Assembly (NCBI GenBank): GCA_016844925.1
Contig: JAERTI010000036.1
Coordinates: forward strand, 11,053 to 75,052
Source of the DNA: Candidatus Uhrbacteria bacterium
GTDB taxonomy: Bacteria > Patescibacteriota > Patescibacteriia > UBA9934 > GWF2-40-263
Length of the DNA: 64,000 nucleotides
Direction: 5' to 3'
Notes under the pieces: generated by a model
Told to the model about the DNA's origin: nothing
What the model saw: the letters and a program-made list of their open reading frames with translations, nothing else
Databases searched by the model: none
Program-made: the position numbers and the translations under genes
Part shown: positions 1 through 39,184 of the stretch, piece after piece
Layout: each line of letters opens with the position of its first letter
Numbering within the stretch: position 1 is the first letter of the stretch

Positions 1-2588
1 CATCAATGGTAACCGTTGCGTTTTCTGCACCGGACCCACTGACACTAATTGTATTGTTCCCTGCGTCAGCAATTGTAGCCACATAATCACCAGTAGTATC
101 AGTACCCAACGTGACCGCGTCTGCAGAAATCGACGCGACTCCAGCGCTGGAAACATCCACGTCACCACTAAGATCAACGGGGTTGTAGCTCGTTCCATCA
201 GCCACGAGGATGAAACCAGATGTGTTGGTATTCATCATCAGATCATCACCAGCAATCTTCAGATCCCCAGAAGTCTCAAGGTTTCCAGTGGTGCCCATGT
301 CCGTAAGTGTAAGAAGGACATTTGTTCCATCACTGAAGGTCAGGACCTCTGTGTTGTTGATGGCAATATTTGGAGTCGTGGCATCGAACGTAATGTCAGC
401 GCCGATCGATGGAACACCGTTGATGTCGACCGTGGAGTCGAAACGTGTTGCGCCATCAACCTCTAGGGCACCCTCGACGAAAAGAGTGTCATCTGCGAGT
501 GCTGTCAGACTATCTGGTGTTGAGCCAGAGCCAATTCGTGCGCCTGAGACAACGGTCAGATCTGATTCTACGTTTGCGTTTGCCGTAAATGTCGTGAGTC
601 CGTCGAACGTAAAGGATCCATCGTCCGATGCCGTGAATCGATCCGCTCCATTGTCCTGAATCACGAAATCTCCCGTTGAAGCAAGGTTGAAAATGATTTT
701 TCCTGTTCCATTGTTTGTGAAAAGAAGCTGGTCATCAGAATCCATGGTAATGGATGTAGACGCATCGAGTCCGAGTGTGTCACTTAAGACAGCAAAGTCG
801 AGACAGTCGTTACAGTTCACATCTACCACATCAAGTGTTACTGGAGCACCCTCAGAACCAGATCCAACCACAGTCACTGTACCGTTCCCCGCGTCAGCGA
901 CCGTGGCAACGTAATTACCCGTTGTGTCTGTACCTAGCGCAACGGCATTAGATGCAATCGTAGCCACTCCAGCGCTAGAGACATCGACGTCACCACTAAG
1001 ATCTACCGGGTTGTAATTCGTTCCATCGGCCACAAGGATGAAGCCTGAGGTGTTGGTACCCATGGTGAGGTCGTCACCTGAAATCGTCAGGTCACCTGAA
1101 AGCGTGAGGTTCCCGGTTGTACCCGCATCAGCCAACGTGAACAAGGTGTTCGTGCCGTCGGTAATGGTGAGAGACTCACCATTATTAATCGCAACATTTG
1201 GTGTTGTGGCATCGAATGTGATGTCAGCACCAATCGATGGGACACCGTTGATGTCGACCGTGGAATCGAAACGTGTCGCACCATCAATCTCTAAGGCACC
1301 CTCGACGAAGAATGAATCATCCGCTAGGGCTGTAAGACTATCTGGTGTTGAACCTGTTCCAATACGCGCGCCTGATGTGACAATCAGATCCGCTCCAATA
1401 GTTGCATCGTTGTCTGTTGAAATCGTTCCGATTCCAGACAAGTCACCTGTGGCGGAGATGTCCCAGTCGCTCGTGTTGATCGCAATGGAGTCGCCCCCAT
1501 CACCAATGGTTGTGTTTTGTGCAAACGTCAAATCGCCACCGGCAATAGACAGAGCCAAATCTGTCGAACCGGTCGTGGTTATAACGCCTGAATCAAACGT
1601 GGTATCGGTTCCCACTCCAAATCCACCATCACTAAACACTTTCCCCTCTACACCAATGGATCCTGCGACAAATAGATCGTCACCCCCGAGAGAGAAAGAT
1701 GTGTGCGAAAGTGTTTCCGTGGAACTTGTTGAAGCTCCTATGACAAGGTCATTATCAATAAACCCATCACCCATAACCTCGAGCTCGTCGACAATCTGCA
1801 AATCCCCAACTCCTCCAGAGGCGTAAGTGAATGAAGTATTTGCTCCAATAACAACAGCGCTATCATCCTCATAGATATGAGGTGGCACCGAAGTAGTCTC
1901 CCACACAGAGGTAACGTCTGAAGTGAACGCAATGGTTCCTGAACTATCCTTAAAGGTATAGACGTTGTCACCTGTTGGATCAGTGAACGCGAATGTTGAC
2001 TCAAAATCATCTGCTGTTGCCCCCTCGAAGACAAATGGAGATGCGCCTGAGAGCGTCGCGCCAGTGAAGTCGAAGACTCCCGTACCAGTATCACCAGTCG
2101 CCGCTAAGAATCCCGTTGAATCGATTCCATCGAGACGCTGAGCATTGATGGCGTATGGTGCTGCCGTAAGCTGCTTACGTGGTGAAAGTGTCTCGCCGGC
2201 AATATCGACCTCAAGATAGATATTTGTATTGTCACCAAAGACCGAGTCGGCAATGGCAGCGTACGAGTTGCTCGTGTCGCCAAGGTTCTCTGTGAAAAGT
2301 CCCGATGTAAGCGTTACGGAGCGACCTGTTGTGGAAGCTGGTGTGTTGCTATCACAGTCCGCACTTGAGTTTGACCACAGACACGTTCCCGATGTCGATG
2401 CGTCGTACAAGAAGAACTTCATTGTCAGACTCGAATCGCTGGCAGGAACGCCATTATTATCAAGAACCCGCCCTTGATAGGTAACGATGTTTGGCGGCGC
2501 AGCAGATTGCACAATGCCAAATACTGCCATCAGTGAGAGGATGACGAGTATTCCTGTGACAAATTGTGAACTGTGTTTGAGTAACATA
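1..2588 (-). CDS. Large repetitive secreted surface protein (partial; start codon at 2588, continues beyond window start). Has an N-terminal signal peptide (MLLKHSSQFVTGILVILSLMAVFGIVQSA) and long Gly/Thr/Asp/Ser-rich beta-repeats, with an internal ~830-bp diverged tandem duplication
   Basis: Manual reverse-strand translation gives an uninterrupted ORF from the ATG at 2586-2588 to position 1. The + strand ORFs 210..659, 687..914 and 1038..1826 are antisense artefacts of it. AGGAGG lies just upstream. The ORF track does not list it because it runs off the window edge. Confidence 0.7.
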
Positions 2589-2593
2589 GCCTC

Positions 2594-5500
2594 CTATGAA
2601 GTTGGTGCTGGTGGAATATTTGTCAGATCAATATCTGGCTCAAGCCCAACCTCCTGAGAGAAGTCGATGGGCTCGGTGAGTTGTGAGTAGTCGATGGGAC
2701 GAATTTCCATCGGCTTGAATCCTTCTTTTTGGAACGTAGCGAAGTATTTGTTTGGTCCGAGCATGAACGCATAGCGCCCCTTGCTATCAGTAATTTGTGT
2801 CTCGAGTACCTTGTTGTATTTCGGCTCGAAGATACGCGCGACCACACGCGAGAGCGGACGACCTGTGTAGGAGTCGTACACCACACCCCAGCTAATAGGT
2901 TTTCGAGGTCGAGCCAGACGCTTGGCCAAGAAGAATACTCCTAGCTGAATGCCGATCATGCCGAGCGAGAATGGTGTCGGTCGAATGGCACCAAACGCTC
3001 CGGCTGCAAGAACACCTCCGAAGGCCAACACATGCTGAGCCGTGCGCAGCCACTTGCGTCGTATAGCTGTTGTAGACGCTTGCGCCACATCCTGCTGCAC
3101 AGGATCAAGTGGAATGTTGGCTGAGATGACCGCACTAGCGTCCGTCACCTCAATAGGCTCTGAGTGGTAGACATCTAAGTACTGTCCATCCACTTTCTCC
3201 CCTGCTAGATACTGTGATGGGAATTGATATCCCGATTTTGTGACTTGAATGCGATACCTTCCTGTATCAACCAAGAAGAAGTATCGCCCCCCCTTGTCGG
3301 TAACCCGACTCTTGACGAGACGACCAGGTAACCCGGCCGCCTCGTCTTGTTGTGTGACTTGAAAGAGACGTACCACCGCAAGATCCACTGGGGTCTTGGA
3401 GATAGCGTTATAGACGACTCCGTAACTCTTCCTGCGTCTGCGCCAGAAAAAGAGAATTGGCGCTGTGAAAATGTATTGCAGGAATGGAAGGAAATCGAAC
3501 GCGACAGAAAGTACGACCACACTCGCCCCCGCCGTAACAGCAAGTGTGGGAACAGATACTTCTGCGGCCTCTTCTACACCGGGGAGCTCTCGAATGGTTT
3601 CGAGGCCCTCTTGTACTGCCTGGATTGGTTCAAGATCGAGCACGGTCTCGATCACACTAAGAGCAGCTGCCGTGTCATCCACTTCCTCAGCTTCAGGTTC
3701 TTCGTCTTCAGCTTCGGCTTCAATGATTGGCTCCTCGTCCTCTTCCTGCTCGTACGCTGCAAGAACAATGCGAGGATTCACAATCGCATTTGCGACCACA
3801 AGCTGACCCGTGCTTGTAGTCTCAAAGCCTTCTGCTTCGACTTCGACAAGATAGGTGCCGTTTGGCACATACCAAGCGAATGACCCGTCTGAGGAAACGG
3901 TTGTTGGGTTGAACTGGTTATATGGGGACCCATCCCACACCACCTGCTCACCATCAACGATTTCAAAGAGCGTAACGGTTGCGTTTGATACCGTTGTTTC
4001 TTCACCATCGATGACCTGGAGTGCGTAGCCCTGAGAGACAACGCGCAGGTATGAAGAAACAAATTCAGATGAACCATCGTCGTATTCGACTTCTATGATC
4101 ACCTGTTGAATGCCTTTAGCACTCGGTACGGCAACATCCGCGTTGTAAAGAACGCCTGTCTCGTCTAGAGACAGAAGGAATAGATCGCTGCCTATGGACA
4201 GCTGAACGCTGCTAACATCGTCAGCAACTTCTGACACGGGAATCTGCACACTCAACGTGCTTGTGGGAAGCACCTCAACCACACCGGAGCTGGTGGTCTC
4301 GAGCGTAAGAGATCTCTCCGCGACAAGATAACTGATGTCACTATCGGTTAGTTCACCTTCCTCCGCACCCAAGGAGGTAGGTTCACTCACGCTAGGACAA
4401 TCGATTGGACATGAGGCTGATGATTCAGACTCAGAACACACACCGTCTCCACAGGAAACCGCCAGACCTGAAGAGTCGTCTGTCTCTGAGATGTCATCAT
4501 CTCCTGTCACATCACCGGATCCACCTGATTCAGAATCTTCTTCGGACCCCTCCGTAGAATCTTCTTCACCTTCTTCGGTGGCCGGCTCTTCCTCTGAAGG
4601 AACTTCCTCCTCAGAGGGCACCTCTTCTACTGGAGCACTTGGTAACCCAGATCCAAGCGCACCAGAAGCAAACTGCCCTGCTTCATCGTAGGAAAAAACT
4701 CCAAGGTAATAAGTAAGATCAGCTGTTAAACCAGACAACGTCCCTTCTTCAGTAAGATCGTCGAGGCCTGTCGTGCAATCTTCATCTGTTGGACCGTCTG
4801 GATAGTCATCTTCACAAACCAACACGAGAACTCCATCCAAATCTTCATCCGTTGGATTTGTCCAAGACAATGAAAGGGACTCAACGCCGGACTCTACCAG
4901 CAAGTCTGAAACATTTGCCGGTGGCAAATCTTCCTCTGTCGTGAAGGTGTTATCTGCAGAAAACGCTTGATTCGAGAATTTGTCTGTCGAAACAGCTTGA
5001 AAATGATATTCCGTCTCATCATCAAGTCCCGTCAACAAAACAGAGTGTGATGTGACATATTCGCCGTCATATCCAGTAGACTCATAGGTTTCCGTAAGCC
5101 CATAAGAGACCACACTGTTGGCATCTTCATTGGTCGTCCAAGTGATTCGCGCCGAATCATACGTGATATCAATCACTTCAATATCTGAAATAACAGGCGC
5201 TGTTTGATCCAACGTTGTGAACACGAGCGTGTCTGAAATTCCGACATTAGATGCACTGTCAGTTGAATTGGCGTTGAAGTAATAGGTTTCCCCCTCACTC
5301 AACCCAGTCAACGTTAGACTGTGGGATGTCACGAACTCACTGCTGTAGAAGTTATCTAGATCGACATACTCATCTAAACCAATATTCACCCTTGAATCTG
5401 ACGATTCATCGGTTGTCCAACTCACCACAGCCGAAGTTGTGCTCACGGACGAAACCTTGAGTCCAGAGAGTACTGGCGCTGTGGAATCAGGACTTCCGCC

Positions 5501-6097
5501 ACCACCCCCAGTCTCTGGAGGTTCAGGGACTGTTGCCGAAACAGGAATGCTTCCATCCCCATTAATTGGTAAGGCAATGGAACCACGGTCACCAAACGTT
5601 CCAGCAATGGAGATAAAATGCGTGCCACTTGTTACCGGATTAGTAACTTGATTTGCACCCGTTCCGCTTTCTGTGGCATTCGTCCCCACCTCAACGGTAA
5701 CTTGACTTGCCGCCGCAACGGCCCCACCGTCGCCGGCACAGATAGTAATTGTCACTACATCTGAAGCGATTTCAACGGAAGCTTGCTCTGTTCCAGAGCA
5801 GTCTGCAGCCGTAGTCAGATCGACTCCGTCATCAGCCACATCTACATCATCTTCAATGATCGATGATGTATCGAAGGCTGAAGCAAATGTAATCGTTACG
5901 TTTTCACCTTCTGCTATACCTGAAGGAGTTGTAAAGATCAGCTTATGATCCGCAGGAAGGAACGCCTGGAGCGTGGAAGGATAATCATTCCCCGCTGTAA
6001 GCGTCGCTGCTGACACCTGCGAAGCACCCACAATAATCGCCGTTGCAAATACCGCGACTAATAGGATGTTTCGAGTTGTATTGATGAGCGTTCGCAC
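2594..6097 (-). CDS. 1167-aa secreted surface protein. It has a signal peptide, fibronectin-III-like repeats (TAPV.S...VSW.T.E...Y.F), an acidic Ser/Glu-rich linker, and two C-terminal hydrophobic anchors. Each anchor is followed by an Arg/Lys tract and a carboxypeptidase-regulatory/Cna-B-like beta-sandwich domain
   Basis: ORF track protein. Signal peptide MRTLINTTRNILLVAVFATAIIVGASQVSAA; TM segments at ..AGASVVVLSVAFDFLPFLQYIFTAPILFFWRRRRK and ..VLAFGGVLAAGAFGAIRPTPFSLGMIGIQLGVFFLAKRLARPRKP. It is the same operon as the flanking genes, with gaps of only 3-6 bp. Confidence 0.8.
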   Translation of the reverse strand: MRTLINTTRNILLVAVFATAIIVGASQVSAATLTAGNDYPSTLQAFLPADHKLIFTTPSGIAEGENVTITFASAFDTSSIIEDDVDVADDGVDLTTAADCSGTEQASVEIASDVVTITICAGDGGAVAAASQVTVEVGTNATESGTGANQVTNPVTSGTHFISIAGTFGDRGSIALPINGDGSIPVSATVPEPPETGGGGGSPDSTAPVLSGLKVSSVSTTSAVVSWTTDESSDSRVNIGLDEYVDLDNFYSSEFVTSHSLTLTGLSEGETYYFNANSTDSASNVGISDTLVFTTLDQTAPVISDIEVIDITYDSARITWTTNEDANSVVSYGLTETYESTGYDGEYVTSHSVLLTGLDDETEYHFQAVSTDKFSNQAFSADNTFTTEEDLPPANVSDLLVESGVESLSLSWTNPTDEDLDGVLVLVCEDDYPDGPTDEDCTTGLDDLTEEGTLSGLTADLTYYLGVFSYDEAGQFASGALGSGLPSAPVEEVPSEEEVPSEEEPATEEGEEDSTEGSEEDSESGGSGDVTGDDDISETDDSSGLAVSCGDGVCSESESSASCPIDCPSVSEPTSLGAEEGELTDSDISYLVAERSLTLETTSSGVVEVLPTSTLSVQIPVSEVADDVSSVQLSIGSDLFLLSLDETGVLYNADVAVPSAKGIQQVIIEVEYDDGSSEFVSSYLRVVSQGYALQVIDGEETTVSNATVTLFEIVDGEQVVWDGSPYNQFNPTTVSSDGSFAWYVPNGTYLVEVEAEGFETTSTGQLVVANAIVNPRIVLAAYEQEEDEEPIIEAEAEDEEPEAEEVDDTAAALSVIETVLDLEPIQAVQEGLETIRELPGVEEAAEVSVPTLAVTAGASVVVLSVAFDFLPFLQYIFTAPILFFWRRRRKSYGVVYNAISKTPVDLAVVRLFQVTQQDEAAGLPGRLVKSRVTDKGGRYFFLVDTGRYRIQVTKSGYQFPSQYLAGEKVDGQYLDVYHSEPIEVTDASAVISANIPLDPVQQDVAQASTTAIRRKWLRTAQHVLAFGGVLAAGAFGAIRPTPFSLGMIGIQLGVFFLAKRLARPRKPISWGVVYDSYTGRPLSRVVARIFEPKYNKVLETQITDSKGRYAFMLGPNKYFATFQKEGFKPMEIRPIDYSQLTEPIDFSQEVGLEPDIDLTNIPPAPTS

Positions 6098-6103
6098 ACA
6101 TGT

Positions 6104-7042
6104 TTAGGTTTTGTGTGTCCTCCTCGATGCACGCGCACCGAATTTGTAAACGATGAGTAATAGAGCTGCTGCTGCAAAAACCGTGAGGATCAACTGCCAT
6201 GGAATCAGCCAGAATGTGAACTCTGCGTTCATCATGTCATCACCATCGCCATAGCTGACGTTTAGCAGAGCCGTAACAGGACCAATGCTGAAATGCTGTG
6301 CCTGATAATTCACCAACTCATACCAACTCGCATGCTCGCCGGATGAAATACTTCCTCGGTACGTTCGTGTGGATCCAGGAAGGACACGTCCACCCGACTG
6401 ATTTGCATCAACGCGTGAAATTTCTCTTCCTAAGAAATCCGTTACAACAACCTCGCCAGTTGGGAGAATATGTACATTCCCCTGATTCTGCACACGATAT
6501 TGAAAATCAATATCTAACGTCGAGAGCAATGCAGCAGGGGTCTCACTTGTGAAATCAAGCAAACTGGCCTTCTCAGTCGTCTCACCAGCAACTGTTAATA
6601 GCACTAAGACGGCTGTTTTTGCCTCGATAATGGCACCATTGCTCGCAACCACATCCTCTGGAGCTGGCGACACTGTAATCGCGGCATAGTAACCACCGGA
6701 GGCAACATCCTGGGGGACACGGACTTCAAACGGAATATCTGCAGCACTTTCTGCTGGCACAACAACGACCTCTGAATCGAATGTAAACCATTCAAGATAG
6801 TCGGCAGTTGATTCACCTGTTGGAATGAACTGTGGCTCTCCTCCTTCATCACGAGCCGTAAACTCGATTACGTCCAAATAGTACGTTTGATCGATTCCAC
6901 TCGTGTTGATGACGGAAATCGCATCCTCAGTAAGGCTTCCTCGCTCTAGAACCATCTCTACTAGCGAAGGGGAGACACTTGCTGCGGATACCATTACTGG
7001 CATCAGAAGCAGGATAAACAACGTGATGACAAGCTGTTTCAT
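6104..7042 (-). CDS. 312-aa cell-surface protein with N-terminal signal peptide and C-terminal TM anchor plus basic tail (reminiscent of DUF916-type surface proteins of Gram-positives)
   Basis: ORF track. Signal peptide MKQLVITLFILLLMPVMVSAAS; C-terminal WQLILTVFAAAALLLIVYKFGARASRRTHKT. Confidence 0.7.
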   Translation of the reverse strand: MKQLVITLFILLLMPVMVSAASVSPSLVEMVLERGSLTEDAISVINTSGIDQTYYLDVIEFTARDEGGEPQFIPTGESTADYLEWFTFDSEVVVVPAESAADIPFEVRVPQDVASGGYYAAITVSPAPEDVVASNGAIIEAKTAVLVLLTVAGETTEKASLLDFTSETPAALLSTLDIDFQYRVQNQGNVHILPTGEVVVTDFLGREISRVDANQSGGRVLPGSTRTYRGSISSGEHASWYELVNYQAQHFSIGPVTALLNVSYGDGDDMMNAEFTFWLIPWQLILTVFAAAALLLIVYKFGARASRRTHKT

Positions 7043-7045
7043 ACA

Positions 7046-7951
7046 TTAGAAGTTTCCTGACGCAATAAACGAAAGTGTTTGAGAATAGGAGCCTGCAGTT
7101 GCCCCATCTGCAACAGCCGCCTTTAGAGTAAGGAAGTTTCTGCTCGAGAAACTCGCTGATGACTCTGTGGCTATATCTTGATAGGTCGTCGTAATCGCTG
7201 CGTCTGCTGAATCGAAATCACTTGAGGCGAGAGTTGTGTCTGATGATCGAGCACCATATTCTGTGGCCCCCGAACTTACCGCACCATCTGAAACATCTGT
7301 AATGGCATTGCCTCCACTCCTAAGGTCACCATCCTCGAACAACTGCACAACATAACCGTTATCATTCTCAACATTCACCTCGATTCCAATGATGGCGGTA
7401 GAAACAGAACTTGATGAAAGCTCACCAAAAGCAATCGAGGAAGCATCCAATTGATAGACATAGTCATTAGATCCATCAATAGAAGGGGCTGTTCCACCGT
7501 TTGTCAGGCTATCTACCGTAATAGTTGATGCACCGACACTCGTCACCTTTCCAATAGCTCCAACCTGATTAACTCCCCTGTCTTGGATCAAAGCAACGTA
7601 GTTACCAACACTGATACCACTTACAGAAGTTGTAATCGTTGTCCCAGAAAGCCCTGATGCGGAACGAGCGTCAGATAAATCTTGTACCTGTACATCAAAT
7701 GTAATGATCTGATCGTAGACACCTTCTCTATAACCCTGCCCAAGGATATAGCTGGAGCTCGATGAACGACCCGCAGGGCCATTTTCAACAGAGTCCCTTA
7801 AGAGGTAGTTAGATGAACTGGATGTATCAGAACCACCGGTGCTGAACGTATCCCACCTAATCTCGTAGTTTGTGGATGTCATTTCGGCCTGGGTAAAACC
7901 AGCGCATACAAAAAACCCCACAAGCGCAAAGGTGAAAAGATGTAATCTCAT
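7046..7951 (-). CDS. ~300-aa secreted Ser/Thr/Gly-rich surface protein, first gene of the surface-protein operon
   Basis: ORF track 7046..7981. The more likely start is the ATG at 7949-7951 (MRLHLFTFALVGFFVCAGFTQA signal peptide), preceded by GAGG. A TTGACT-N17-TATACT promoter lies just upstream. Confidence 0.65.
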   Translation of the reverse strand: MRLHLFTFALVGFFVCAGFTQAEMTSTNYEIRWDTFSTGGSDTSSSSNYLLRDSVENGPAGRSSSSSYILGQGYREGVYDQIITFDVQVQDLSDARSASGLSGTTITTSVSGISVGNYVALIQDRGVNQVGAIGKVTSVGASTITVDSLTNGGTAPSIDGSNDYVYQLDASSIAFGELSSSSVSTAIIGIEVNVENDNGYVVQLFEDGDLRSGGNAITDVSDGAVSSGATEYGARSSDTTLASSDFDSADAAITTTYQDIATESSASFSSRNFLTLKAAVADGATAGSYSQTLSFIASGNF

Positions 7952-8012
7952 AGGCTTACCTCTACAAATAGAGTATATCATGAATACTAAATGTAGTCAA
8001 AGTATTTCTTTG

Positions 8013-8038
8013 CTAAGCTTAGCAAAGAAATGGACCTT
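8013..8038. promoter_or_regulatory. Perfect 26-bp palindrome TTTCTTTGCTAAGC|TTAGCAAAGAAA abutting the -35 box of the surface-protein operon promoter; candidate operator
   Basis: Read directly. A perfect DnaA-box nonamer TTATCCACA also occurs at 8100-8108 in the same intergenic region. Confidence 0.5.
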
Positions 8039-8288
8039 TTTTGATGCAAAAGTAGGAAAAAAATAGAAAAAACTTCTAAAACTCTTTGAAATTGCCGCTT
8101 ATCCACATTTTTCCCTGTTTGTCTACCCCAGTGTTGCCAAATAACTAAAATCCACCAAAAGTTGGTGGATTTTAGTTCGATCTATTTAACCTTATCGCTT
8201 GCATCTCATAACTACTGTGATCTGATCTACTTAACCATGACTTCAGATTTCACAGTATCGTTTCTCGTGAAACACCATCAGAATTTTA

Positions 8289-8364
8289 TGGTGTCCCCGG
8301 AGGGACTCGAACCCCCATGTCATCCTTAGGAGGGATGCGCTCTATCCTGTTGAGCTACGAGGAC
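8289..8364 (-). tRNA. tRNA-Arg (anticodon CCT), CCA encoded
   Basis: Manual cloverleaf fold of the reverse complement: acceptor GTCCTCG/CGGGGAC, anticodon stem CATCC/GGATG with loop CTCCTAA, T-arm GGGGG-TTCGAGT-CCCTC. A hairpin terminator lies downstream at ~8143-8170. Confidence 0.8.
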
Positions 8365-11845: not shown

Positions 11846-14494
11846 TTATTCCAACCCTTTCATTTCTCCCCAATTTTTCCCAACTTCCACATCTACCTTT
11901 AGCGGCACATCGAACTCTGCCACACTTTCCATCATCTCCCTTAGCCCCTTAGCCACAGCATCCACCGCATCCTTGTCGCACTCCAGCACCAGTTCGTCAT
12001 GCACCTGCAAGAGCACCTTTGCGGGCCACTCACTTGTCTTGAGCCAGCCTCCCACTGCGAGCATAGCTTTCTTCATGAGATCTGAGGCCGTTCCTTGTAG
12101 CGGATGATTAACCGCCATACGCTCTGCAGCTGAAACGAGCATGGGGACACCACTTTCAATCTCAGGCACGTAGCGTCGGCGTCCAAACAATGTTTCAACA
12201 TACCCCTGCGCATGTGCCAACGCTTTCGTTTCTTCAATGAAATCGCGTACCGCTGTGTGGATCTCAAAGTATTTCGCAATGAATTCCTTTGCCTCGGAAA
12301 AACTCAGCCCAGTAGAACGTGCCAGTGCCCGAGGTCCCATGCCATACATGATCCCAAAATTGATCGCCTTGGCTGCACGACGCTGATCCTTCGTCACATC
12401 CTCCTCAGCAACCTCCCACACCTCTGCGGCCGTACGTGTGTGAATATCTGCCCCCTCCCGAAATGCCTGGATGAACGGCTTGTCTTTTGCTAGCACGGCA
12501 ATGAGACGCAATTCGATCTGACTGTAATCAGCAGCGATGAGACGCTTGCCACGTGGCGCCACGAACGCCTTGCGAATTTCTCGTCCGAGCTCTGTCTTGA
12601 TGGGAATGTTTTGCAAATTCGGTTCAGAAGAAGACAGGCGCCCCGTTGCCGCCACTGCCTGGTTGTACGTCGTGTGTACGCGCCCATCGCTCGCCACCAA
12701 CTTTGGCAGCGCCTCCACATACGTCGATTGCAACTTAGCCAACTCACGATACTTTGCGATCAACGGCACGATCTCATGCTCATCCCACAACTTCTCGAGC
12801 TCACTAGCCGCCGTAGAATATCCTGTCTTTGTTTTCTTAATTCCTTTTGTCGGCAACTCCAACTTCTCGAAAAAAATGACTGCTAACTGTGAAGGTGAAT
12901 TCAAATTGAACTCTTCTCCCGCAAGCTTTGTCACCTTCTTAATGAGGGAACTAATTTGCTTCGCCAAACTTTTCTGAAATATCGCAAGAGATTCTGTGTC
13001 GAGCATGATCCCCTCAACCTCCATCTGGTAAAGCACCGGCACCAGAGGCATCTCGATCTTGTCGAATACATCTTCCTGCCCAGCCTCTTTCAGGGCCTCA
13101 CGCATCTTCTTGGCCAAACGTGGGAGCGTAGCTGCCACCTGACCCAGTCGCTGATAATCCTTTTCCTTTGCAAACGCCTGGGGGATCTCCGGCACTTTCT
13201 CTTCTAATTGTCGATGCACAACGGAAGAGAGCTCATGTGTCCGCGAACCGGCGTGAAGCAAGTAGCTGGCAATCATGACATCAAACGTCGGTGTGCTGAT
13301 CCGTTTTTCGATTTGATGCATGAGGTGTTTTGCGTCGTGTGTCACCAGGAGCCCAGCCCCCAAGAGGGTCTCAAACACCTGCTCCACGGTCTCCTTAGAC
13401 GGATTCACCAGCACACTCGTTCGGCTCCCATCTGAGATAGCTAAAGCGGCCATGGTCGCGCCAAATAAATCTGCAGGTTGTTCTGCGATCAGAACCCCCA
13501 CGGGGCTATCAAATTTCTTCGCTGAATAGTCTTGCCCAGATCGAACAATCTCAACATGACCAACGGGCTCGCCCTCACCATTCTCCAGTGGTGGAGGTGG
13601 AAGCTCGCGTGCACCATGAACGTCCCCGTGCTTACGCAGAAGCGTTCGAAACTCTAAATTCCGATACAAGGGCAACAGCGCCTCATAGTCAGGAGGACTC
13701 ATCTTAGCCTGAGGAAAACGGAACCCCGTCTTCACATCCCGAACAATTGTCACAAGCGTTTTAGATGTTTCGACCTCCTCCTCAAACCCGCGGAACTTCT
13801 TCGCAAACTTCTCCGGCACCTCTCCACGCTCGATAGCATCATAAATACCCTCTACGGTCTCATGAGCCTGAAGCAATGTCGTAGCCGTCTTGTCTCCTAC
13901 TCCCTTGAGCCCAGGAATATTATCGCTCGAGTCTCCACGGAGCGCCTTATAATCGATTACCTGCTCCGGTGTAAGACCATACCGCTCGTGCACGGCCTCC
14001 CGGTCGTAAATCTTTGTCTGACTAATACCTTTTACAAAAAACACGACGTGCACGTCGTCGTCTACAAGCTGCAAGGCATCGAGATCTCCGGTCACAATCA
14101 ATGTCTTGTACCCTTTCTTGCTAGCTCTGGTGCTAAGCGTCCCGATGATGTCATCAGCCTCATATCCCTCAGCCTCAAGACAAGGAATCCCAAAGGCTTC
14201 AAGAATCTCTTTAATAATATCAATCTGATCGTACAGCTCCTGCTCCTTCTCTTCACGCCCGGCTTTATACTCCTCGTAAATCTCATTACGGAACGTCCCC
14301 CCAGGAAGATCCCACGCCACAGCCATGTAATCAGGCCGGTACGTCTCGATCATCTTTTCTGTGATCATGGCAAAGCCATAGGCGGCATTCACCACCAAAC
14401 CATCCTTGGTAGTAAGGGGAGGTAAAGCGTGCCACGCACGGTGCAACAGTGCGTTGCCGTCTAGTACTAAAAATGTAGGTTTTTTATCAGTCAT
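11846..14494 (-). CDS. polA: DNA polymerase I
   Basis: 5'-3' exonuclease N-terminus (MTDKKPTFLVLDGNALLHRAWHAL..) and polymerase motifs (..RRAAKAINFGIMYG.., ..LQVHDELVLE..). The start was moved to the ATG at 14494, downstream of the ORF-track start. Confidence 0.9.
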   Translation of the reverse strand: MTDKKPTFLVLDGNALLHRAWHALPPLTTKDGLVVNAAYGFAMITEKMIETYRPDYMAVAWDLPGGTFRNEIYEEYKAGREEKEQELYDQIDIIKEILEAFGIPCLEAEGYEADDIIGTLSTRASKKGYKTLIVTGDLDALQLVDDDVHVVFFVKGISQTKIYDREAVHERYGLTPEQVIDYKALRGDSSDNIPGLKGVGDKTATTLLQAHETVEGIYDAIERGEVPEKFAKKFRGFEEEVETSKTLVTIVRDVKTGFRFPQAKMSPPDYEALLPLYRNLEFRTLLRKHGDVHGARELPPPPLENGEGEPVGHVEIVRSGQDYSAKKFDSPVGVLIAEQPADLFGATMAALAISDGSRTSVLVNPSKETVEQVFETLLGAGLLVTHDAKHLMHQIEKRISTPTFDVMIASYLLHAGSRTHELSSVVHRQLEEKVPEIPQAFAKEKDYQRLGQVAATLPRLAKKMREALKEAGQEDVFDKIEMPLVPVLYQMEVEGIMLDTESLAIFQKSLAKQISSLIKKVTKLAGEEFNLNSPSQLAVIFFEKLELPTKGIKKTKTGYSTAASELEKLWDEHEIVPLIAKYRELAKLQSTYVEALPKLVASDGRVHTTYNQAVAATGRLSSSEPNLQNIPIKTELGREIRKAFVAPRGKRLIAADYSQIELRLIAVLAKDKPFIQAFREGADIHTRTAAEVWEVAEEDVTKDQRRAAKAINFGIMYGMGPRALARSTGLSFSEAKEFIAKYFEIHTAVRDFIEETKALAHAQGYVETLFGRRRYVPEIESGVPMLVSAAERMAVNHPLQGTASDLMKKAMLAVGGWLKTSEWPAKVLLQVHDELVLECDKDAVDAVAKGLREMMESVAEFDVPLKVDVEVGKNWGEMKGLE

Positions 14495-14586
14495 GTGAGC
14501 ACAGTGTACCGCACCGAGGGATTGACAAAAAGGGATAATTCCAACAACATCGAAACGTTCCAACACGGGAACGGAAAGGTGCTCTC

Positions 14587-14901
14587 ATGCGCTATCTGCG
14601 ATGGTACTTGCGTAGCCTCTTCACCATCTTCCTCGGGCTGTACATGGTCAGCATGCCCACCATCCTGAGCCTCAAGCTCATAGACGGTTGGCCCTGGTGG
14701 ACGCTGACGATCCTCACGGCCGCAGTCGGCCTGATCAGCGGCATTCTCGCACTCTTCGGTCTGTTCAGTGGAGAATGCATCCCCACCTCCGAGGACGATG
14801 ACTGGTTCCTCGGCACCATCGTTCACACGGGTGTACACACCTACATCGGCGCCATCATCTTGATCGGACGCTACGCCTGGATCGGACTTCAGGCCAGCTA
14901 G
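14587..14901 (+). CDS. GC-rich small integral membrane protein (104 aa, 2-3 TM)
   Basis: ORF track. TTGACA at ~14523, RBS GGAAAGG, and terminator CCGCGTACGCGG+TTTTTTCTTTT at 14905-14930. Confidence 0.55.
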   Translation: MRYLRWYLRSLFTIFLGLYMVSMPTILSLKLIDGWPWWTLTILTAAVGLISGILALFGLFSGECIPTSEDDDWFLGTIVHTGVHTYIGAIILIGRYAWIGLQAS

Positions 14902-15006
14902 CTCTCAACCGCGTACGCGGTTTTTTCTTTTATGTTACCTGAGATAAACGCATTGACACTCCCTTTATAAGCCGCTAACGTGCCTGCGCCCTCAAAGGAG
15001 AATGTC

Positions 15007-15642
15007 GTGGAATTCTTGATTACCCACCTCACAGGCGTCGAGCCCCACTCGGAGCCTCTCACCCCCGAAGCCGTAGACCAACGTCTGCAGCAAGATCGGG
15101 TGATGTGGTTCATCACCAAGAGAATCGGTGATGGGTGCCGGACGCACGTCCTGTTCCCCAGCACCGTGCCCTCCGCACTGCACGCCGAGCCGGAACAGAT
15201 GCATCCGCCCGATTACAAGAACCTGACCAAGTTGGTCCAGGCGCTCTACCCGGGAAGCCGTCACCGTCGAAGCGTTCAGGGAGGACTCCTGAAGATCGGC
15301 GCGGACGGAAGCGACTGCTGGCGTCTCTCCGCAATCACCAAGCCCGACGAGCCCTGCGCCTCGCGCTACAACGACGTCTGGGCCCTGCACCTGATGCACC
15401 AGTGCGGCCGCATGGTCTGCGTCCGCTCGCCAAACGATCCGGTGGTGGTCTGCAGCCCGGAGGGACTGCACCTGAGCCCCGGCTTCGACGAGGCCGGCAT
15501 GACGCGCTGGACCAGTGAGCAGTTCCTGCACCTGGCCTTCCAGGAGGCCGCGCGCAAGCTCGGACAACGCTTCCAGCCCGTGCCGCTGGATATCAACGAC
15601 AAGGGGAAGGTGACCAAGTACCTCCTCGTCACTCAGGGCTAA
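15007..15642 (+). CDS. GC-rich hypothetical protein (~211 aa); likely GTG start
   Basis: ORF track 14980..15642; AAAGGAG-N6-GTG at 15007; TTGACAC promoter at ~14950; terminator CCGTGTC..GACACGG+TTTTTTATTTTT at 15643-15675, bidirectional and shared with trmB. Confidence 0.5.
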   Translation: MEFLITHLTGVEPHSEPLTPEAVDQRLQQDRVMWFITKRIGDGCRTHVLFPSTVPSALHAEPEQMHPPDYKNLTKLVQALYPGSRHRRSVQGGLLKIGADGSDCWRLSAITKPDEPCASRYNDVWALHLMHQCGRMVCVRSPNDPVVVCSPEGLHLSPGFDEAGMTRWTSEQFLHLAFQEAARKLGQRFQPVPLDINDKGKVTKYLLVTQG

Positions 15643-15669
15643 ACGCCTCCGTGTCTGTGACACGGTTTT

Positions 15670-16443
15670 TTATTTTTCTGGCTGATCAGCTTTAGACCAC
15701 ACCAAATCAAAAAGGGTCTTGTACGTCCGCGCTACATCACCCGAGGCAAGGATGATCATGGCGTTCTCTCTTCGAGTTGTAATAAATGCAACCTGATCAG
15801 CAAAGATAATAACCGTCGCTGGAAGATCAACATCCTTTGGCAGGAAACGCGACTCTCGCAACTCATTGATATCTTTCTCAACAATCTTCCGCGTGGCTCG
15901 ACTCTCAGGAATGAGTTGTTTTGAATGAATCCCTCGTTTTTTTCTTTCAGAAATAATCCGATCAACAAGGTAGGGCTCTTTTACATAATCAAGGAGCCCA
16001 ACCCCAGATGTAATCAAGCGATACTCTTTCACTTCCGACTCCAACAACTGTTTCCACAAGCGCTTAAACCCGTCCGTCCCTTCATAAAACGTCACACCCG
16101 GACCACCACGAGCCGTCTCCTGAAGGAGCTCTAGTGCTGGAACCGTTTTCTCAACCAAGCTCTCTCGCTCACGCATTTGCTCTTCTAAACGTCGCGGGGA
16201 CTCAGCGATGTACACGGTCGTCTTCTTCTCTTTACCGACACGAAACACTCCACGACGACGGAGTCGCTCCAAAATAGGGTAGAGCGTTGTGCGGGGTAGG
16301 CGTGTACGGCGTGAAAACTCCAGGACGCTCGCGCTCCCTAACTCAAGCCCTGCCAAATAAATCTTCGCCTCTTTTTTGTCGAGCCCGTAGGCCTGAAGGC
16401 CTTTCATGAGCTCGGAAGGATAGTGCATACGCATAGTAACCAT
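15670..16443 (-). CDS. TrmB-family transcriptional regulator
   Basis: N-terminal winged HTH (LQAYGLDKKEAKIYLAGLELGSASVLEFSRRTRLPRTTLYPILERLRRRGV) plus the TrmB C-terminal domain. GC is moderate, unlike its flanks. Confidence 0.75.
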   Translation of the reverse strand: MVTMRMHYPSELMKGLQAYGLDKKEAKIYLAGLELGSASVLEFSRRTRLPRTTLYPILERLRRRGVFRVGKEKKTTVYIAESPRRLEEQMRERESLVEKTVPALELLQETARGGPGVTFYEGTDGFKRLWKQLLESEVKEYRLITSGVGLLDYVKEPYLVDRIISERKKRGIHSKQLIPESRATRKIVEKDINELRESRFLPKDVDLPATVIIFADQVAFITTRRENAMIILASGDVARTYKTLFDLVWSKADQPEK

Positions 16444-16559
16444 AGGGTCTCACAGCCAGATGGGGGAGTCAAAAAGTTGTCGAAAATATCGTCAGATCTC
16501 CTGGGCAAATTTTTTTGGTCACGTAGTGTGATTATAGGTCATTCACAAAGGAGGCTCGC

Positions 16560-17270: not shown

Positions 17271-17613
17271 CTACTGCTTTCATGCGCAGCCCTCGGGACC
17301 ACCTCCCAAGCCTGCGGACACCTACTGCTGCAAGTGCGGTAAGAAGTACGGACACTCAGCCCGCTTCTGCGCCGCTTGTGCCAGGCCGCGCGGCGAGATC
17401 TCGCTGGTCAAGAACCTCATCCCCACACAGTGTGGGGAGTGCAACAAGTCCGTGGAGTCTGACGACAACTACTGCGGCCACTGCAGGACCCCCGTCGACA
17501 AGAGTTGGAAGGAAGTTCCTGCCTGCTCCTGCGGCACTCTGCTTGAGCCCAACGCCCAGTACTGCGGTGCCTGCGGCAAGTCCGTTCCCGGCGCAAGAAA
17601 GGAAGCGTCATGA
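17245..17613 (+). CDS. GC-rich tandem zinc-ribbon protein (three CxxC-N-CxxC ribbons)
   Basis: GAGGAG-N7-ATG at 17245; CCKCG..CAACA, CGECN..CGHC, CSCG..CGACG. It overlaps the upstream ORF end by 26 nt and the downstream start in an ATGA. Confidence 0.55.
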   Translation: MAWKTTSPDYCFHAQPSGPPPKPADTYCCKCGKKYGHSARFCAACARPRGEISLVKNLIPTQCGECNKSVESDDNYCGHCRTPVDKSWKEVPACSCGTLLEPNAQYCGACGKSVPGARKEAS

Positions 17614-17945: not shown

Positions 17946-18099
17946 CACGCACACCCCACCCCCGATACGCATCGGGGATTTTTTTTGTGCAAAATAAATA
18001 CCCGCACTTGCTTCCGAAGAAGTGTAGTGCGGGGGAGTGGAGCCACGCGCTGGCTACACACTCAGTGCCCGACGTGCATCAGGCGGGTGTCCTGTCGGA

Positions 18100-39150: not shown

Positions 39151-39184
39151 AAAAAATGGTGATACGCTTTCATCACTGTTTTTA

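What the first reader, a model, noticed from the sequence alone, without database searches (positions are those of the whole stretch)
1..8110. Four-gene operon of giant repetitive secreted surface proteins with unusual anchoring and a palindromic operator
More than 7.9 kb encode four consecutive secreted proteins on the minus strand. These are a >860-aa beta-repeat protein with an internal ~830-bp tandem duplication, a 1167-aa FN3-repeat protein, and two ~300-aa proteins. The 1167-aa protein ends in two separate TM helices, each followed by a basic stretch and a Cna-B/carboxypeptidase-regulatory-like domain. There is no LPXTG sortase signal. The operon promoter (TTGACT-N17-TATACT) is directly preceded by a perfect 26-bp palindrome (8013-8038) and a perfect DnaA box (8100-8108). 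It is probably an adhesion or host-interaction apparatus under dedicated repression.
Basis: partly seen in the sequence, partly recalled or inferred. Interest (0 to 1): 0.6.

Follow-up and report, generated by a model that had tools for sequence, protein, structure and literature searches.

The report
Pam-like pilus operon of Uhrbacteria
The four genes are a divergent, stripped-down version of the recently described "Pam" pilus system of ultra-small CPR bacteria (pilin-like subunit, membrane-anchored chaperone, membrane anchor, giant tail-fibre-like adhesin), and their promoter, palindrome and DnaA box are conserved in dozens of related species.

Summary
Four tightly packed minus-strand genes (gaps of 3, 6 and 6 nt) lie in a Candidatus Uhrbacteria (Patescibacteria/CPR) genome. 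They keep this order in about 80 related species.

- **A (301 aa)** matches the NCBIfam PamT and Pam-pilin-C models, significantly but below their cut-offs. Its modelled C-terminal domain resembles chaperone-usher pilins.
- **B (312 aa)** is a confidently modelled two-Ig-domain protein with a C-terminal membrane helix. Its best fold matches are E. faecium WxLIP and PapD-type pilus chaperones.
- **C (1167 aa)** starts with the N-terminal domain and linker strand of two-domain Pam-like pilins but has no acceptor domain. It continues through three FN3 domains into a membrane module. I infer a donor-only terminator and anchor.
- **D** is 3218 aa on the full contig and looks like a phage tail fibre.

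The palindrome is really 28 bp (8004-8031). Its core, GCTAA-N2-TTAGC, sits at the same position in 58 of 79 orthologous promoters, exactly 11 nt from TTGAC in 51 of 58. A DnaA box lies upstream in 56 of 57. It is therefore a real regulatory module, but nothing supports "dedicated repression" or the TrmB candidate. Verdict: a new variant of a kind first described in a 2026 preprint; moderately interesting.

The parts
7046..7951 (-). Gene A, 301 aa: a PamT-like pilin subunit. Signal peptide, residues 1-22. Conserved N-terminal extension with three S-x-N/S-Y-x-I/L strand motifs, residues 23-75 (window 7727-7885). Small beta-barrel insert, about 83-167 (7451-7705). C-terminal Ig-like pilin domain, 168-301 (7049-7450).
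6104..7042 (-). Gene B, 312 aa: a membrane-anchored PapD/WxLIP-like chaperone. Signal peptide 1-20, two Ig-like domains, a conserved beta-hairpin at 125-151 with a disordered tip (window 6590-6670), and a C-terminal TM helix at about 280-304 (6131-6205).
   Evidence: The AF2 model has pLDDT 91. Foldseek against PDB gives E. faecium WxLIP 9i25_C/9i1y (E 6e-12), the CU chaperones CfaA, CsuC, EcpB, CupB2 and Caf1M (E 1e-9 to 1e-7, TM-score on target 0.46-0.59), and RbmA with a poorer TM-score. 23 of 49 orthologues hit Pfam WxLIP_PGBD below its cut-off. The profile hits EfmWxLIP1 at E 0.03 over the hairpin region. A B homologue (200 bits) follows a two-domain pilin gene in L082.
2594..6097 (-). 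Gene C, 1167 aa. Signal peptide. Pilin N-terminal-domain-like head, residues 32-184 (5546-6004). Linker/donor-strand-like GSIPVSATVPEP, 182-193 (5519-5554). Gly-rich hinge. Three FN3 domains, 205-485 (4643-5485). Acidic linker and 4-Cys motif. Beta domain plus CarboxypepD_reg, 575-775. Acidic linker. Hydrophobic TM region 851-885 (3443-3547) followed by RRRRK. CarboxypepD_reg-like domain 894-985. TM hairpin at about 1020-1059 (2921-3040). CarboxypepD_reg-like domain at about 1068-1150.
   Evidence: Pfam hits are, and hydropathy. An HMM of the C N-terminus from 70 orthologues hits the N-terminal domains of the two-domain pilins P0361 (73 bits), P0368 and P0360, and the alignment runs through their linker strand. 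The C-terminal domains of those three proteins match the A profile. The N-terminal and TM modules are the conserved parts of C across species; the FN3 block is absent in distant orthologues.
1..2587 (-). Gene D, the first 862 of 3218 aa: a giant tail-fibre-like protein. Signal peptide or anchor at 1-28. Conserved N-terminal domain at 29-165 (2093-2503). Repeat modules marked by CxDC(L/F)DF. The 277-aa duplication has unit 1 at 617-1447 and unit 2 at 2-619, cut by the window edge.
   Evidence: The full gene is on L001 at 13511-23167. NCBIfam Bdello_MAT_N matches at E 9e-10 (38.6 bits, cut-off 60). The C-terminal region weakly matches Peptidase_G2 IMC (E 2e-4) and phage cement protein. Repeats are shown. 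The N- and C-terminal parts are conserved while the middle is variable. Complete orthologues are mostly 1036-2042 aa, and three much shorter ORFs (331-482 aa) are probably fragmented.
7958..7962 (-). Shine-Dalgarno GAGGT, 6 nt before the ATG of A.
   Evidence: The consensus in orthologues is tttgtaaaGG.
7972..8000 (-). Sigma-70-type promoter: TTGACT (8000-7995), a 17-nt spacer, TG-n-TATACT (7977-7972). The spacer itself (..TTtGTaTTCATG) is conserved across species.
   Evidence: 10 of 12 consensus positions, with the TG extension. The consensus over 58 orthologous promoters is TTGACtAcatTTtGTaTTCATG.TAtA.T.
8004..8031 (.). Perfect 28-bp palindrome with core GCTAAGCTTAGC (8012-8023) and T-rich/A-rich symmetric flanks. 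Probably the binding site of a dimeric transcription factor, centred about 52.5 nt upstream of the inferred transcription start.
   Evidence: It is unique in the window. The core, with up to one mismatch, lies within the -130..-30 window before the A start codon in 58 of 79 loci (observed positions -58 to -96), against 38 hits in 1.2 Mb elsewhere. The gap to TTGAC is exactly 11 nt in 51 of 58 loci. The flanks show symmetric covariation without excess G-T pairs.
8099..8107 (+). Consensus DnaA box TTATCCACA (TGTGGATAA on the operon strand), 84 nt upstream of the palindrome core.
   Evidence: A DnaA box with up to one mismatch lies within 150 nt upstream of the palindrome in 56 of 57 orthologous loci. 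There is a sharp peak at -84 to -87 in the same orientation, against a background of 0.025 per 145 nt.
8143..8177 (.). 16-bp-arm hairpin between tRNA-Arg and the promoter region. Probably the terminator or processing hairpin of the tRNA transcript.
   Evidence: Hairpins of different sequence occupy the equivalent place in orthologues.
8289..8364 (-). tRNA-Arg(CCT), the conserved upstream neighbour on the same strand.
   Evidence: The same tRNA precedes the operon in all 34 orthologous loci scanned, often with tRNA-Ala(CGC) in between.

Best explanation
This is the Uhrbacteria version of the CPR "Pam" pilus system: a cell-surface fibre built without a usher or sortase, by beta-strand complementation on the outer face of the cytoplasmic membrane.

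**Shown by the analysis**
- All four products carry N-terminal export signals.
- A is homologous to Pam pilins and has a C-terminal Ig-like pilin domain.
- B has the two-domain fold of PapD-type chaperones and WxLIP, and is tethered by a C-terminal TM helix.
- C begins with the N-terminal domain and linker strand of two-domain Pam-type pilins but has no acceptor domain. It ends in a conserved polytopic membrane module.
- D is a 3218-aa tail-fibre-like protein.
- The gene order and the promoter architecture are conserved across the lineage.

**Inferred mechanism**
1. After Sec export, B holds A by inserting its conserved hairpin (residues 125-151) into the incomplete Ig fold of A.
2. The linker strand of C (VSATV) then replaces the chaperone strand. 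This caps the base and anchors the structure in the membrane, as proposed for PamR, or as PapH does in P pili.
3. Either A sits as a single cap on the long FN3/acidic stalk of C, or A polymerises through its conserved 50-residue N-terminal extension, which is disordered in the monomer model, and C terminates the polymer.
4. D is the variable, repeat-expanded adhesin that contacts the host cell. How it attaches to the rest is unknown.

**Expression**
Transcription comes from a near-consensus extended -10 promoter. A dimeric factor probably bound at the palindrome, and probably DnaA bound at the conserved box, would modulate it. That could tie fibre production to replication or growth state.
For: **Organism**
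- Close homologues of A and B are all named Uhrbacteria, Parcubacteria or Patescibacteria.

**Homology to Pam pilins**
- A matches NF058579 PamT (E 8e-11) and NF058581 Pam_pilin_C (E 2e-5, full model length).
- Of 36 family members scanned (A itself plus 35 distant relatives), 34 match Pam_pilin_C and 32 match PamT, with best E-values of 7e-12 and 1e-21.

**Folds**
- B matches WxLIP and the CU chaperones.

**C as a donor-only subunit**
- The C N-terminal HMM hits the N-terminal domain plus linker of two-domain pilins at 73, 38 and 30 bits.
- The aligned strand is VSATV in C and FTVSTSV in P0361. P0360 reads VVVSATV at the same place.
- No acceptor domain is found in C.

**Related operon L082**
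- It holds a large protein ending in a pilin C-terminal domain, a two-domain pilin, a B homologue and MazE, as in the published pam neighbourhood (paper read).

**Match to the published description**
- The preprint describes TM-anchored PapD-like chaperones, a tip pilin PamT, an FnIII/TM anchor PamR and a conserved tail-fibre-like neighbour.

**Operon and regulation**
- The order A-B-C-D is conserved: A was found in 81 loci, B in 65, C in 70 and D in 60. The gaps are contig ends or divergence.
- Promoter conservation is shown.
Against: - A scores far below the curated NCBIfam cut-offs (41.7 versus 240 bits; 24.6 versus 55 bits). It is a relative of the Pam pilins, not a certified member.
- B has no sequence match to any Pam model.
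- No two-domain PamA/PamB-type major pilin is present in the operon or the window, so a long filament is not assured.
- The 3-6 nt gene spacing, with no attenuator after A, suggests near-stoichiometric expression rather than a large excess of pilin.
- The profile-profile comparison of C's N-terminus with A itself was unconvincing.
- No complex prediction or experimental data exist for this lineage.
- ATP-synthase genes, a hallmark of the published neighbourhood, were not seen among the upstream neighbours annotated.
Confidence: 0.65

Rival explanations
1. A WxL-type, non-filamentous surface-display system. B acts like Firmicute WxLIP and holds A at the cell surface as a single unit that stabilises or presents it. 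C and D are independent membrane-anchored adhesins that merely share the operon. No donor-strand exchange and no polymer are involved.
For: The best structural match of B is E. faecium WxLIP, free and bound to a long WxL protein (E 6e-12). 23 of 49 B orthologues hit Pfam WxLIP_PGBD (DUF916), and the profile hits EfmWxLIP1. The published WxLIP model is also a strand or hairpin insertion into its partner (PMC10599100). The cluster logic matches WxL loci: a small partner protein, an Ig-Ig-TM protein and large adhesins. Tight gene spacing suggests stoichiometric products.
Against: A has no WxL domain. There are no Pfam hits in A or in the 35 relatives scanned with it, and A has a single Trp. A does match Pam pilin models. 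C carries a pilin N-terminal domain and linker strand, which makes sense only in a strand-exchange system. All WxLIP_PGBD hits are below the Pfam cut-off.
Confidence: 0.2
2. One reading: a generic adhesin operon kept off by a dedicated repressor, for example the TrmB-family protein at 15670-16443, that binds the palindrome as an operator.
For: The palindrome is real, unique in the window and conserved in sequence and position. A TrmB-family gene exists in the window and in some orthologous neighbourhoods.
Against: The site ends 3 nt upstream of the -35 hexamer and does not overlap the core promoter or the transcription start. That placement is more typical of activators or UP-like elements. 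The TrmB gene is 7.7 kb away beside polA and was found in only 20 of 64 loci with upstream sequence, consistent with general synteny only. A similar core (CCTAAACTTAGC) with two DnaA boxes precedes another promoter at 38.6-38.8 kb, so the factor is probably not dedicated.
Confidence: 0.1
3. The palindrome and DnaA box are not transcriptional elements of the operon. They would be a replication-origin fragment, or the terminator of the upstream tRNA.
For: A DnaA box followed by an AT-rich stretch resembles origin architecture. The palindrome was flagged as terminator-like on the plus strand. tRNA genes lie just upstream.
Against: Cumulative GC skew falls monotonically through the region with no turning point. 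Only one to three boxes occur per locus. The palindrome keeps an exact 11-nt distance to the -35 hexamer in 51 of 58 species, and its core is conserved in sequence rather than only in pairing. No T-run follows it on the operon strand. A separate hairpin (8143-8177) already follows the tRNA.
Confidence: 0.04
4. D, and perhaps the whole locus, is a degraded prophage tail-fibre module.
For: D weakly matches Peptidase_G2 IMC, phage cement protein and the Bdellovibrio chimeric fibre N-terminal domain. The beta-barrel insert of A resembles phage tailspike and tail-tube domains.
Against: The locus sits in a conserved core-genome context (polA-holA-rpsT-rmuC-tRNA-Arg) in about 60 species. No other phage genes are present. 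All four frames are intact.
Confidence: 0.01

Closest known systems
Pam pilus system of Candidatus Mycosynbacter amalyticus and other CPR bacteria (Troman et al., bioRxiv 10.64898/2026.03.03.709456; NCBIfam NF058579 PamT, NF058581 Pam_pilin_C)
   Same: It is restricted to CPR bacteria. [quoted passage not shown] The PapD-like chaperone carries a C-terminal TM helix. An FnIII-containing TM protein is proposed as the anchor. A tail-fibre-like giant protein is encoded alongside. There is no usher, sortase or type IV machinery. A matches the PamT and Pam_pilin_C models with significant E-values.
   Different: The scores are far below the curated cut-offs. This locus has only one pilin-like gene, PamT-like and with an extra beta-barrel insert, and no two-domain PamA/PamB/PamE. 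It has one chaperone instead of two. The anchor C is 1167 aa, with a pilin N-terminal domain plus linker, three FN3 domains and a polytopic C-terminal module carrying two CarboxypepD_reg-like domains; PamR has two FnIII domains and one TM helix. [quoted passage not shown] No ATP-synthase neighbours were seen.
Chaperone-usher pili (Pap/Fim, CFA/I, Csu)
   Same: B has the two-Ig-domain chaperone fold, and A has an Ig-like pilin domain with a C-terminal G-x-Y-x-x-T-(L/V)-x-F-type strand. The inferred donor-strand complementation and a donor-only terminator are analogous to PapH.
   Different: There is no outer membrane and no usher. The chaperone is membrane-tethered. Sequence similarity is undetectable and the structural similarity of A is weak.
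WxL / WxLIP (DUF916-DUF3324-TM) clusters of Enterococcus, Listeria and Lactobacillus (PMC10599100; PDB 9i1y, 9i25)
   Same: B is the same kind of protein: signal peptide, two Ig-like domains and a C-terminal TM helix, with a hairpin proposed to insert into its partner. WxLIP is B's best structural match. The operon logic is similar, with one small partner and large adhesins.
   Different: No WxL domain or W-x-L motifs occur in A, C or D. The Pfam WxLIP_PGBD hits are below the cut-off. The phyla differ (Bacillota versus Patescibacteria).
Bdellovibrio mosaic adhesive trimer (MAT) fibres and phage tail fibres
   Same: The N-terminal domain of D matches NF053851 (E 9e-10). D has a conserved N-terminus, a variable repeat-rich shaft and a conserved C-terminal region with weak Peptidase_G2 IMC similarity.
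   Different: The match is below the cut-off. D is far larger (3218 aa) and is encoded in a pilus-type operon of a monoderm CPR bacterium.

Membership tests
Pam pilus system (CPR) | [quoted passage not shown] | tested here: inconclusive
   A residues 170-301 align to model positions 3-148 of 148 at E 2e-5, but with only 24.6 bits. 34 of 36 family members scanned also match, with a best E of 7e-12. Homology is likely, but the membership threshold is not reached.
Pam pilus system (CPR) | PamT equivalog (NF058579, cut-off 240 bits) | tested here: not met
   41.7 bits, E 8e-11, covering only model positions 7-118.
Pam pilus system (CPR) | PapD/FimC-like chaperone carrying a C-terminal transmembrane helix (PamC/PamD) | tested here: met
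   The AF2 model of B (pLDDT 91) has two beta-sandwich domains and a C-terminal helix at 282-311. Foldseek hits CfaA, CsuC, EcpB, CupB2 and Caf1M. The segment 275-304 is hydrophobic. No sequence comparison with PamC or PamD was possible.
Pam pilus system (CPR) | Two-domain major pilins (N-terminal domain, linker strand, C-terminal domain: PamA/PamB/PamE) | tested here: not met
   No second A-like or N-terminal-domain-like ORF is present in the 64-kb window. The only N-terminal domain plus linker is at the N-terminus of C, which lacks a C-terminal pilin domain.
Pam pilus system (CPR) | FnIII-containing membrane anchor with an N-terminal strand (PamR) | tested here: inconclusive
   C has three fn3 domains and TM segments and an N-terminal pilin-type domain plus linker. 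Its architecture is much larger than PamR, and no sequence comparison with PamR was possible.
Pam pilus system (CPR) | Conserved neighbourhood: tail-fibre-like protein and ATP synthase genes | tested here: inconclusive
   A tail-fibre-like D is present. No ATP synthase genes occur among the 8 kb of upstream genes or the other window ORFs scanned. The region downstream of D was not available.
Pam pilus system (CPR) | Filament assembled by donor-strand exchange | not testable with these tools
   This needs multimer structure prediction or cryo-EM. Only indirect support is available: a conserved N-terminal extension of A that is disordered in the monomer model, and a linker strand in C.
Chaperone-usher pili | Outer-membrane usher | tested here: not met
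   No usher-like gene is present in the operon or its neighbours. That CPR bacteria lack an outer membrane is established knowledge.
WxL / WxLIP cluster | DUF916 (WxLIP_PGBD) - DUF3324 - TM protein | tested here: inconclusive
   The best fold match of B is WxLIP (E 6e-12). WxLIP_PGBD matches 23 of 49 orthologues with a best E of 2e-4, all below the 27.3-bit cut-off.
WxL / WxLIP cluster | Partner proteins with a WxL domain (dual Trp-x-Leu motif) | tested here: not met
   No Pfam WxL hit was found in A-D or in the 35 A relatives scanned. A has a single Trp, in IRWD.
Sortase-dependent (LPXTG) pili | LPXTG sorting signal and a sortase gene | tested here: not met
   No LPXTG motif lies near any C-terminus, and no sortase gene is among the neighbours.
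Bdellovibrio MAT fibre family | N-terminal MAT domain (NF053851, cut-off 60 bits) | tested here: inconclusive
   D residues 21-163 score 38.6 bits at E 9e-10.

The most novel reading that the evidence does not exclude
The Uhrbacteria locus may be a minimal form of a monoderm strand-complementation pathway that unites the CPR Pam pili with the WxL/WxLIP surface systems of Firmicutes. In this reading a membrane-tethered Ig-Ig chaperone (B, equivalent to WxLIP) hands an incomplete Ig-fold subunit (A) to a donor-only membrane anchor (C). The polytopic C-terminus of C, with two probably cytoplasmic transthyretin-like domains, would couple the fibre to the cell interior. The whole apparatus would be under DnaA-box control, so that host-attachment fibres are made in step with the replication cycle of an obligate episymbiont.
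Probability: 0.2. Interest if true: 0.8.

Novelty: new variant of a known kind. Interest (0 to 1): 0.55.

Why it matters
CPR/Patescibacteria are a large share of bacterial diversity and mostly live attached to host cells. How they attach is known for only a few cultivated Saccharibacteria.

- **Wider reach of the Pam principle.** The locus suggests that the Pam-type assembly principle, published only in 2026, extends in a stripped-down four-gene form to Uhrbacteria. There it is a syntenic core-genome feature of every species examined.
- **A concrete model to test.** The proposed roles are an acceptor subunit, a tethered chaperone and a donor-only anchor.
- **A possible evolutionary bridge.** The chaperone's resemblance to WxLIP hints at a link to the WxL systems of Gram-positive pathogens.
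- **A rare conserved promoter in CPR.** The DnaA box, 28-bp dyad and consensus promoter with fixed spacing could open the study of transcriptional control in organisms with almost no characterised regulation.

Tried and rejected
- **TrmB as the regulator.** Its gene is near polA in only 20 of 64 loci with upstream sequence, which is general synteny only.
- **Palindrome as a terminator or RNA hairpin.** No T-run follows on the operon strand, the core is conserved in sequence, and G-T pairs are not enriched.
- **oriC.** There is no GC-skew inflection.
- **Sequence search of PDB with the A profiles.** Nothing relevant was found. The Pam structures seem not to be in the copy.
- **Pfam on full-length D.** No hits. 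Only fragments gave weak hits.
- **Profile-profile comparison of C's N-terminus with A.** Probability 67%, driven by the signal peptide; judged uninformative.
- **Pilin domains in D.** None found.
- **Paralogues of A, B or C elsewhere in the window.** None found.
- **Attenuator or terminator between A and B in orthologues with 100-130 nt gaps.** None found.
- **WxL domain in the A family.** None found.
- **Names for distant relatives from cluster look-up.** None available.
- **Rfam on the non-coding stretches at 38.5-39.2 kb and downstream of D.** No hits.
- **NCBIfam on the fuller Pam-like operon L082.** It also falls below the cut-offs, which shows the models are narrow.

Full report
**1. 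What is in the sequence**

ORF listing and translation confirm four consecutive minus-strand genes.
- A is 7046-7951 and B is 6104-7042.
- C is 2594-6097, and D runs from 2587 off the window start.

An exact-protein look-up of C found the source contig, a Logan assembly of SRR13374099, held here as L001.
- There A is called as 301 aa, starting at the ATG at 7951. The longer 311-aa ORF would start upstream of the -10 box.
- D is 3218 aa, so the window shows only its first 862 residues.
- The gaps between the genes are 3, 6 and 6 nt.

All four proteins have hydrophobic N-terminal export signals, and none has an LPXTG motif.

The internal duplication in D is real.
- It appears as an 828-nt direct repeat.
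- The corresponding 277-aa units are 70% identical.
- It is part of a series of five modules marked by a CxDC(L/F)DF motif.

C carries three fn3 and three CarboxypepD_reg matches.
- A 35-residue hydrophobic stretch is followed by RRRRK.
- A second hydrophobic region looks like a helical hairpin and is followed by RLARPRK.
- Each of these is followed by a CarboxypepD_reg-like domain.
- By the positive-inside rule these two terminal domains would be cytoplasmic. That is an inference.

**2. Organism and conservation**

Close homologues of A (316 hits, 50-76% identity, about 300 aa) and of B come only from Candidatus Uhrbacteria, Parcubacteria or Patescibacteria MAGs.

A scan of one genome per GTDB species returned 80 loci.
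- A-B-C-D occur in the same order and strand wherever the contig is long enough. A was found in 81 loci (including L001), B in 65, C in 70 and D in 60.
- Where tblastn missed B, a B-like ORF is still present, for example in L071.
- The upstream context polA-holA-rpsT-rmuC-tRNA-Arg(CCT), with tRNA-Ala(CGC) in some species, is also syntenic.
- This is therefore a vertically inherited core-genome locus, not a mobile or phage element.

The conserved parts are all of A, B, the N-terminal about 200 aa and the C-terminal about 330 aa of C, and the N- and C-terminal regions of D.
- The FN3 block of C is missing in distant species.
- The shaft of D varies. Complete orthologues are mostly 1036-2042 aa, and three much shorter ORFs (331-482 aa) are probably fragmented. 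The 3218-aa copy here is the longest seen.

**3. What the proteins are**

*Protein A.*
- NCBIfam matches the recently created models "CPR-type pilus protein PamT" (E 8e-11) and "Pam pilus system pilin subunit" C-terminal domain (E 2e-5, full model length). Both are well below the curated cut-offs.
- These models derive from a 2026 preprint (bioRxiv 10.64898/2026.03.03.709456). It solved two pilins of Ca. Mycosynbacter amalyticus by cryo-EM.
- The preprint proposed a usher-less pathway with TM-anchored PapD-like chaperones (PamC/D), a tip subunit (PamT), an FnIII/TM anchor (PamR) and a conserved tail-fibre-like neighbour.
- A profile of the A family finds 1065 representative clusters. Many are about 220-aa proteins that lack A's residues 85-165.
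- Of 36 family members scanned (A itself plus 35 distant relatives), 34 match Pam_pilin_C and 32 match PamT.
- The AF2 model of A is confident for residues 80-301: a small beta-barrel insert plus an Ig-like domain.
- The Ig-like domain gives many weak hits to FimA, PapA, CfaB, FimG, CS17 and SafD.
- Residues 23-75 are among the most conserved in the family, with three S-x-N-Y-x-I/L motifs. They are nevertheless modelled as disordered. That is what one expects of a strand that folds only against a partner.

*Protein B.*
- B is modelled with pLDDT 91 as two beta-sandwich domains plus a C-terminal helix.
- Its best PDB matches are E. faecium WxLIP (E 6e-12), a series of chaperone-usher chaperones, and RbmA with poorer TM-scores.
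- Weak but recurrent Pfam WxLIP_PGBD (DUF916) hits occur in 23 of 49 orthologues.

*Protein C.*
- An HMM of its N-terminus hits the N-terminal domains of three two-domain pilins at 73, 38 and 30 bits.
- The C-terminal domains of those three proteins match the A profile.
- The alignment runs through their linker strand (FTVSTSV in P0361; VVVSATV in P0360), which corresponds to SIPVSATV in C.
- After that strand C has a Gly-rich hinge and FN3 domains instead of an acceptor domain.

*Protein D.*
- Its N-terminal domain matches the Bdellovibrio chimeric-fibre domain (E 9e-10, below cut-off).
- Its C-terminal region weakly matches Peptidase_G2 IMC and phage cement protein.

*A related operon.*
- The metagenomic contig L082 carries a protein of at least 1274 aa (its ORF may be cut at the contig end) that ends in a pilin C-terminal domain, a two-domain pilin, a clear B homologue (200 bits) and a MazE gene.
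- This echoes the published pam neighbourhood.

**4. How it probably works**

Shown here:
- A is homologous to the Pam pilins.
- B has the chaperone fold.
- The head of C is a pilin N-terminal domain plus linker.
- The proteins are exported and membrane-tethered, and the operon is conserved.

Inferred:
- B stabilises exported A by inserting its conserved hairpin (residues 125-151, the region shared with WxLIP) into A's incomplete Ig fold.
- C's linker strand then displaces it. Because C has no acceptor domain, this both terminates assembly and anchors the structure in the membrane.

Whether A forms a polymer through its N-terminal extension, or a single cap on the FN3/acidic stalk of C, cannot be decided.
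- The conserved extension, disordered in the monomer model, favours a polymer.
- The absence of PamA/B-type two-domain pilins favours a capped stalk.
- So does the tight gene spacing, with no attenuator after A.

D is most simply the variable host-binding fibre. No pilin domain was found in it, so how it attaches is unknown.

**5. The promoter region**

On the operon strand the order is:
1. tRNA-Arg (8364-8289)
2. a 16-bp-arm hairpin (8177-8143)
3. a DnaA box, TGTGGATAA (8107-8099)
4. an AT-rich stretch
5. the 28-bp palindrome (8031-8004)
6. 3 nt, then TTGACT-N17-TG-n-TATACT (8000-7972)
7. GAGGT, then the ATG at 7951

Comparison across species gives these results.
- The palindrome core GCTAA-N2-TTAGC, with up to one mismatch, lies within the -130..-30 window before the A start codon in 58 of 79 loci (observed positions -58 to -96). 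Elsewhere there are 38 hits in 1.2 Mb.
- Its distance to TTGAC is exactly 11 nt in 51 of 58 loci.
- The T-rich and A-rich flanks are symmetric and show modest symmetric covariation with few G-T pairs. This fits a dimeric DNA-binding protein better than an RNA hairpin.
- The promoter spacer (GTATTCATG) is also conserved, which is unusual.
- A DnaA box with up to one mismatch lies within 150 nt upstream of the palindrome in 56 of 57 loci. There is a sharp peak 84-87 nt upstream in one orientation, against a background of 0.025 per 145 nt.

The single box in this window is not significant by count. Its conservation makes it so.

There is no GC-skew turning point here, so this is not oriC.

The palindrome lies wholly upstream of the -35 hexamer. 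The term "operator" and repression are therefore not supported, and activation or an UP-like function is at least as likely.

A similar arrangement precedes a DksA-like/LspA unit at 38.6-38.8 kb. It has two DnaA boxes, the core CCTAAACTTAGC and TTGACC-N17-TATTAT. The factor is therefore probably not dedicated to this operon. The TrmB candidate has no specific support.

**6. Comparison with known systems, and novelty**

- The closest system is the Pam pilus. The locus shares its logic and shows significant but sub-threshold homology.
- It differs in composition. It has one PamT-like subunit with an insert, one chaperone, no two-domain pilins and a much larger anchor with a polytopic C-terminal module. 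It also comes from a different lineage.
- It is not a chaperone-usher system, because there is no usher. It is not a sortase pilus, because there is no LPXTG. It is not a WxL cluster, because there is no WxL domain.
- B's best structural relative is nevertheless WxLIP. That similarity hints at a deeper link between the CPR and Firmicute surface systems. No paper in the library connects the two under the terms searched.

I rate it a new variant of a known kind, known only from a 2026 preprint. The conserved DnaA-box and dyad promoter module is the most original by-product.

**7. Limits**

- No multimer prediction could be run, and no sequences of the M. amalyticus Pam proteins were available.
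- No dedicated signal-peptide or topology predictor was available.
- The transcription start is inferred from the promoter consensus.
- The region downstream of D, beyond a terminator-like hairpin about 300 nt after its stop codon, was not seen.

Noticed in passing
window 38603-39088: A second promoter module resembles the pilus-operon one. It has two perfect DnaA boxes (38603-38611 and 38634-38642, same orientation), CCTAAACTTAGC at 38701-38712, and TTGACC-N17-TATTAT. About 330 nt of GC-rich non-coding sequence follows, with no Rfam match. Then come a DksA/TraR-type zinc-finger ORF (39089-39571) and LspA (39568-40047). The non-coding stretch may be a long leader or an undescribed small RNA.
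   Followed up: partly
window 8110-8290 and the equivalent regions of L007, L008, L010, L011, L038, L040, L045, L073, L076-L079: Further conserved elements lie between the tRNA and the promoter. One is a 16-bp palindrome, TGTTTCACGTGAAACA, about 45 nt after the tRNA in many species (degenerate here, around 8262-8277). The other is a TTGTCTACA...TGTAGACAA hairpin, of which this window keeps only GTAGACAAA (about 8117-8125). Their function is unknown.
   Followed up: partly
proteins P0443, P0445, P0448, P0449 (homologues of C residues 841-1167): The conserved C-terminal module of C (TM segments plus two CarboxypepD_reg-like domains) also occurs in other CPR proteins whose N-termini carry a prepilin-type N-methylation motif (PF07963). 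It may be a reusable membrane-anchor module for different surface filaments.
   Followed up: no
L011, L013, L015, L019 and many other loci; L080: Many GTDB genome records that carry this Uhrbacteria-type locus and its syntenic neighbours are titled "uncultured Gammaproteobacteria bacterium", and one is titled "Methylococcaceae bacterium". These are probably mislabelled or contaminated MAG records.
   Followed up: no
L082:14-10346: This is a fuller Pam-like operon on a JGI metagenome contig. It holds a protein of at least 1274 aa (the ORF may be cut at the contig end) that ends in a pilin C-terminal domain, which is an adhesin-like architecture. It also holds a two-domain pilin, a B homologue, a 350-aa protein with a pilin N-terminal-like head and a dockerin-like tail, two more exported proteins, and then MazE. 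None reaches the NCBIfam Pam cut-offs.
   Followed up: partly
L001:23168-23480 (downstream of D, outside the window): About 300 nt of GC-rich untranslated sequence lies between the stop codon of D and a terminator-like hairpin (CCGCGAG...CTCGCGG followed by a T-run). It has no Rfam match.
   Followed up: partly
window 1-64000: G+C content varies strongly along the window, from 0.40 to 0.65 in 2-kb bins. The pilus locus is at 0.47-0.52, and a block at 48-60 kb is at 0.60-0.65.
   Followed up: no
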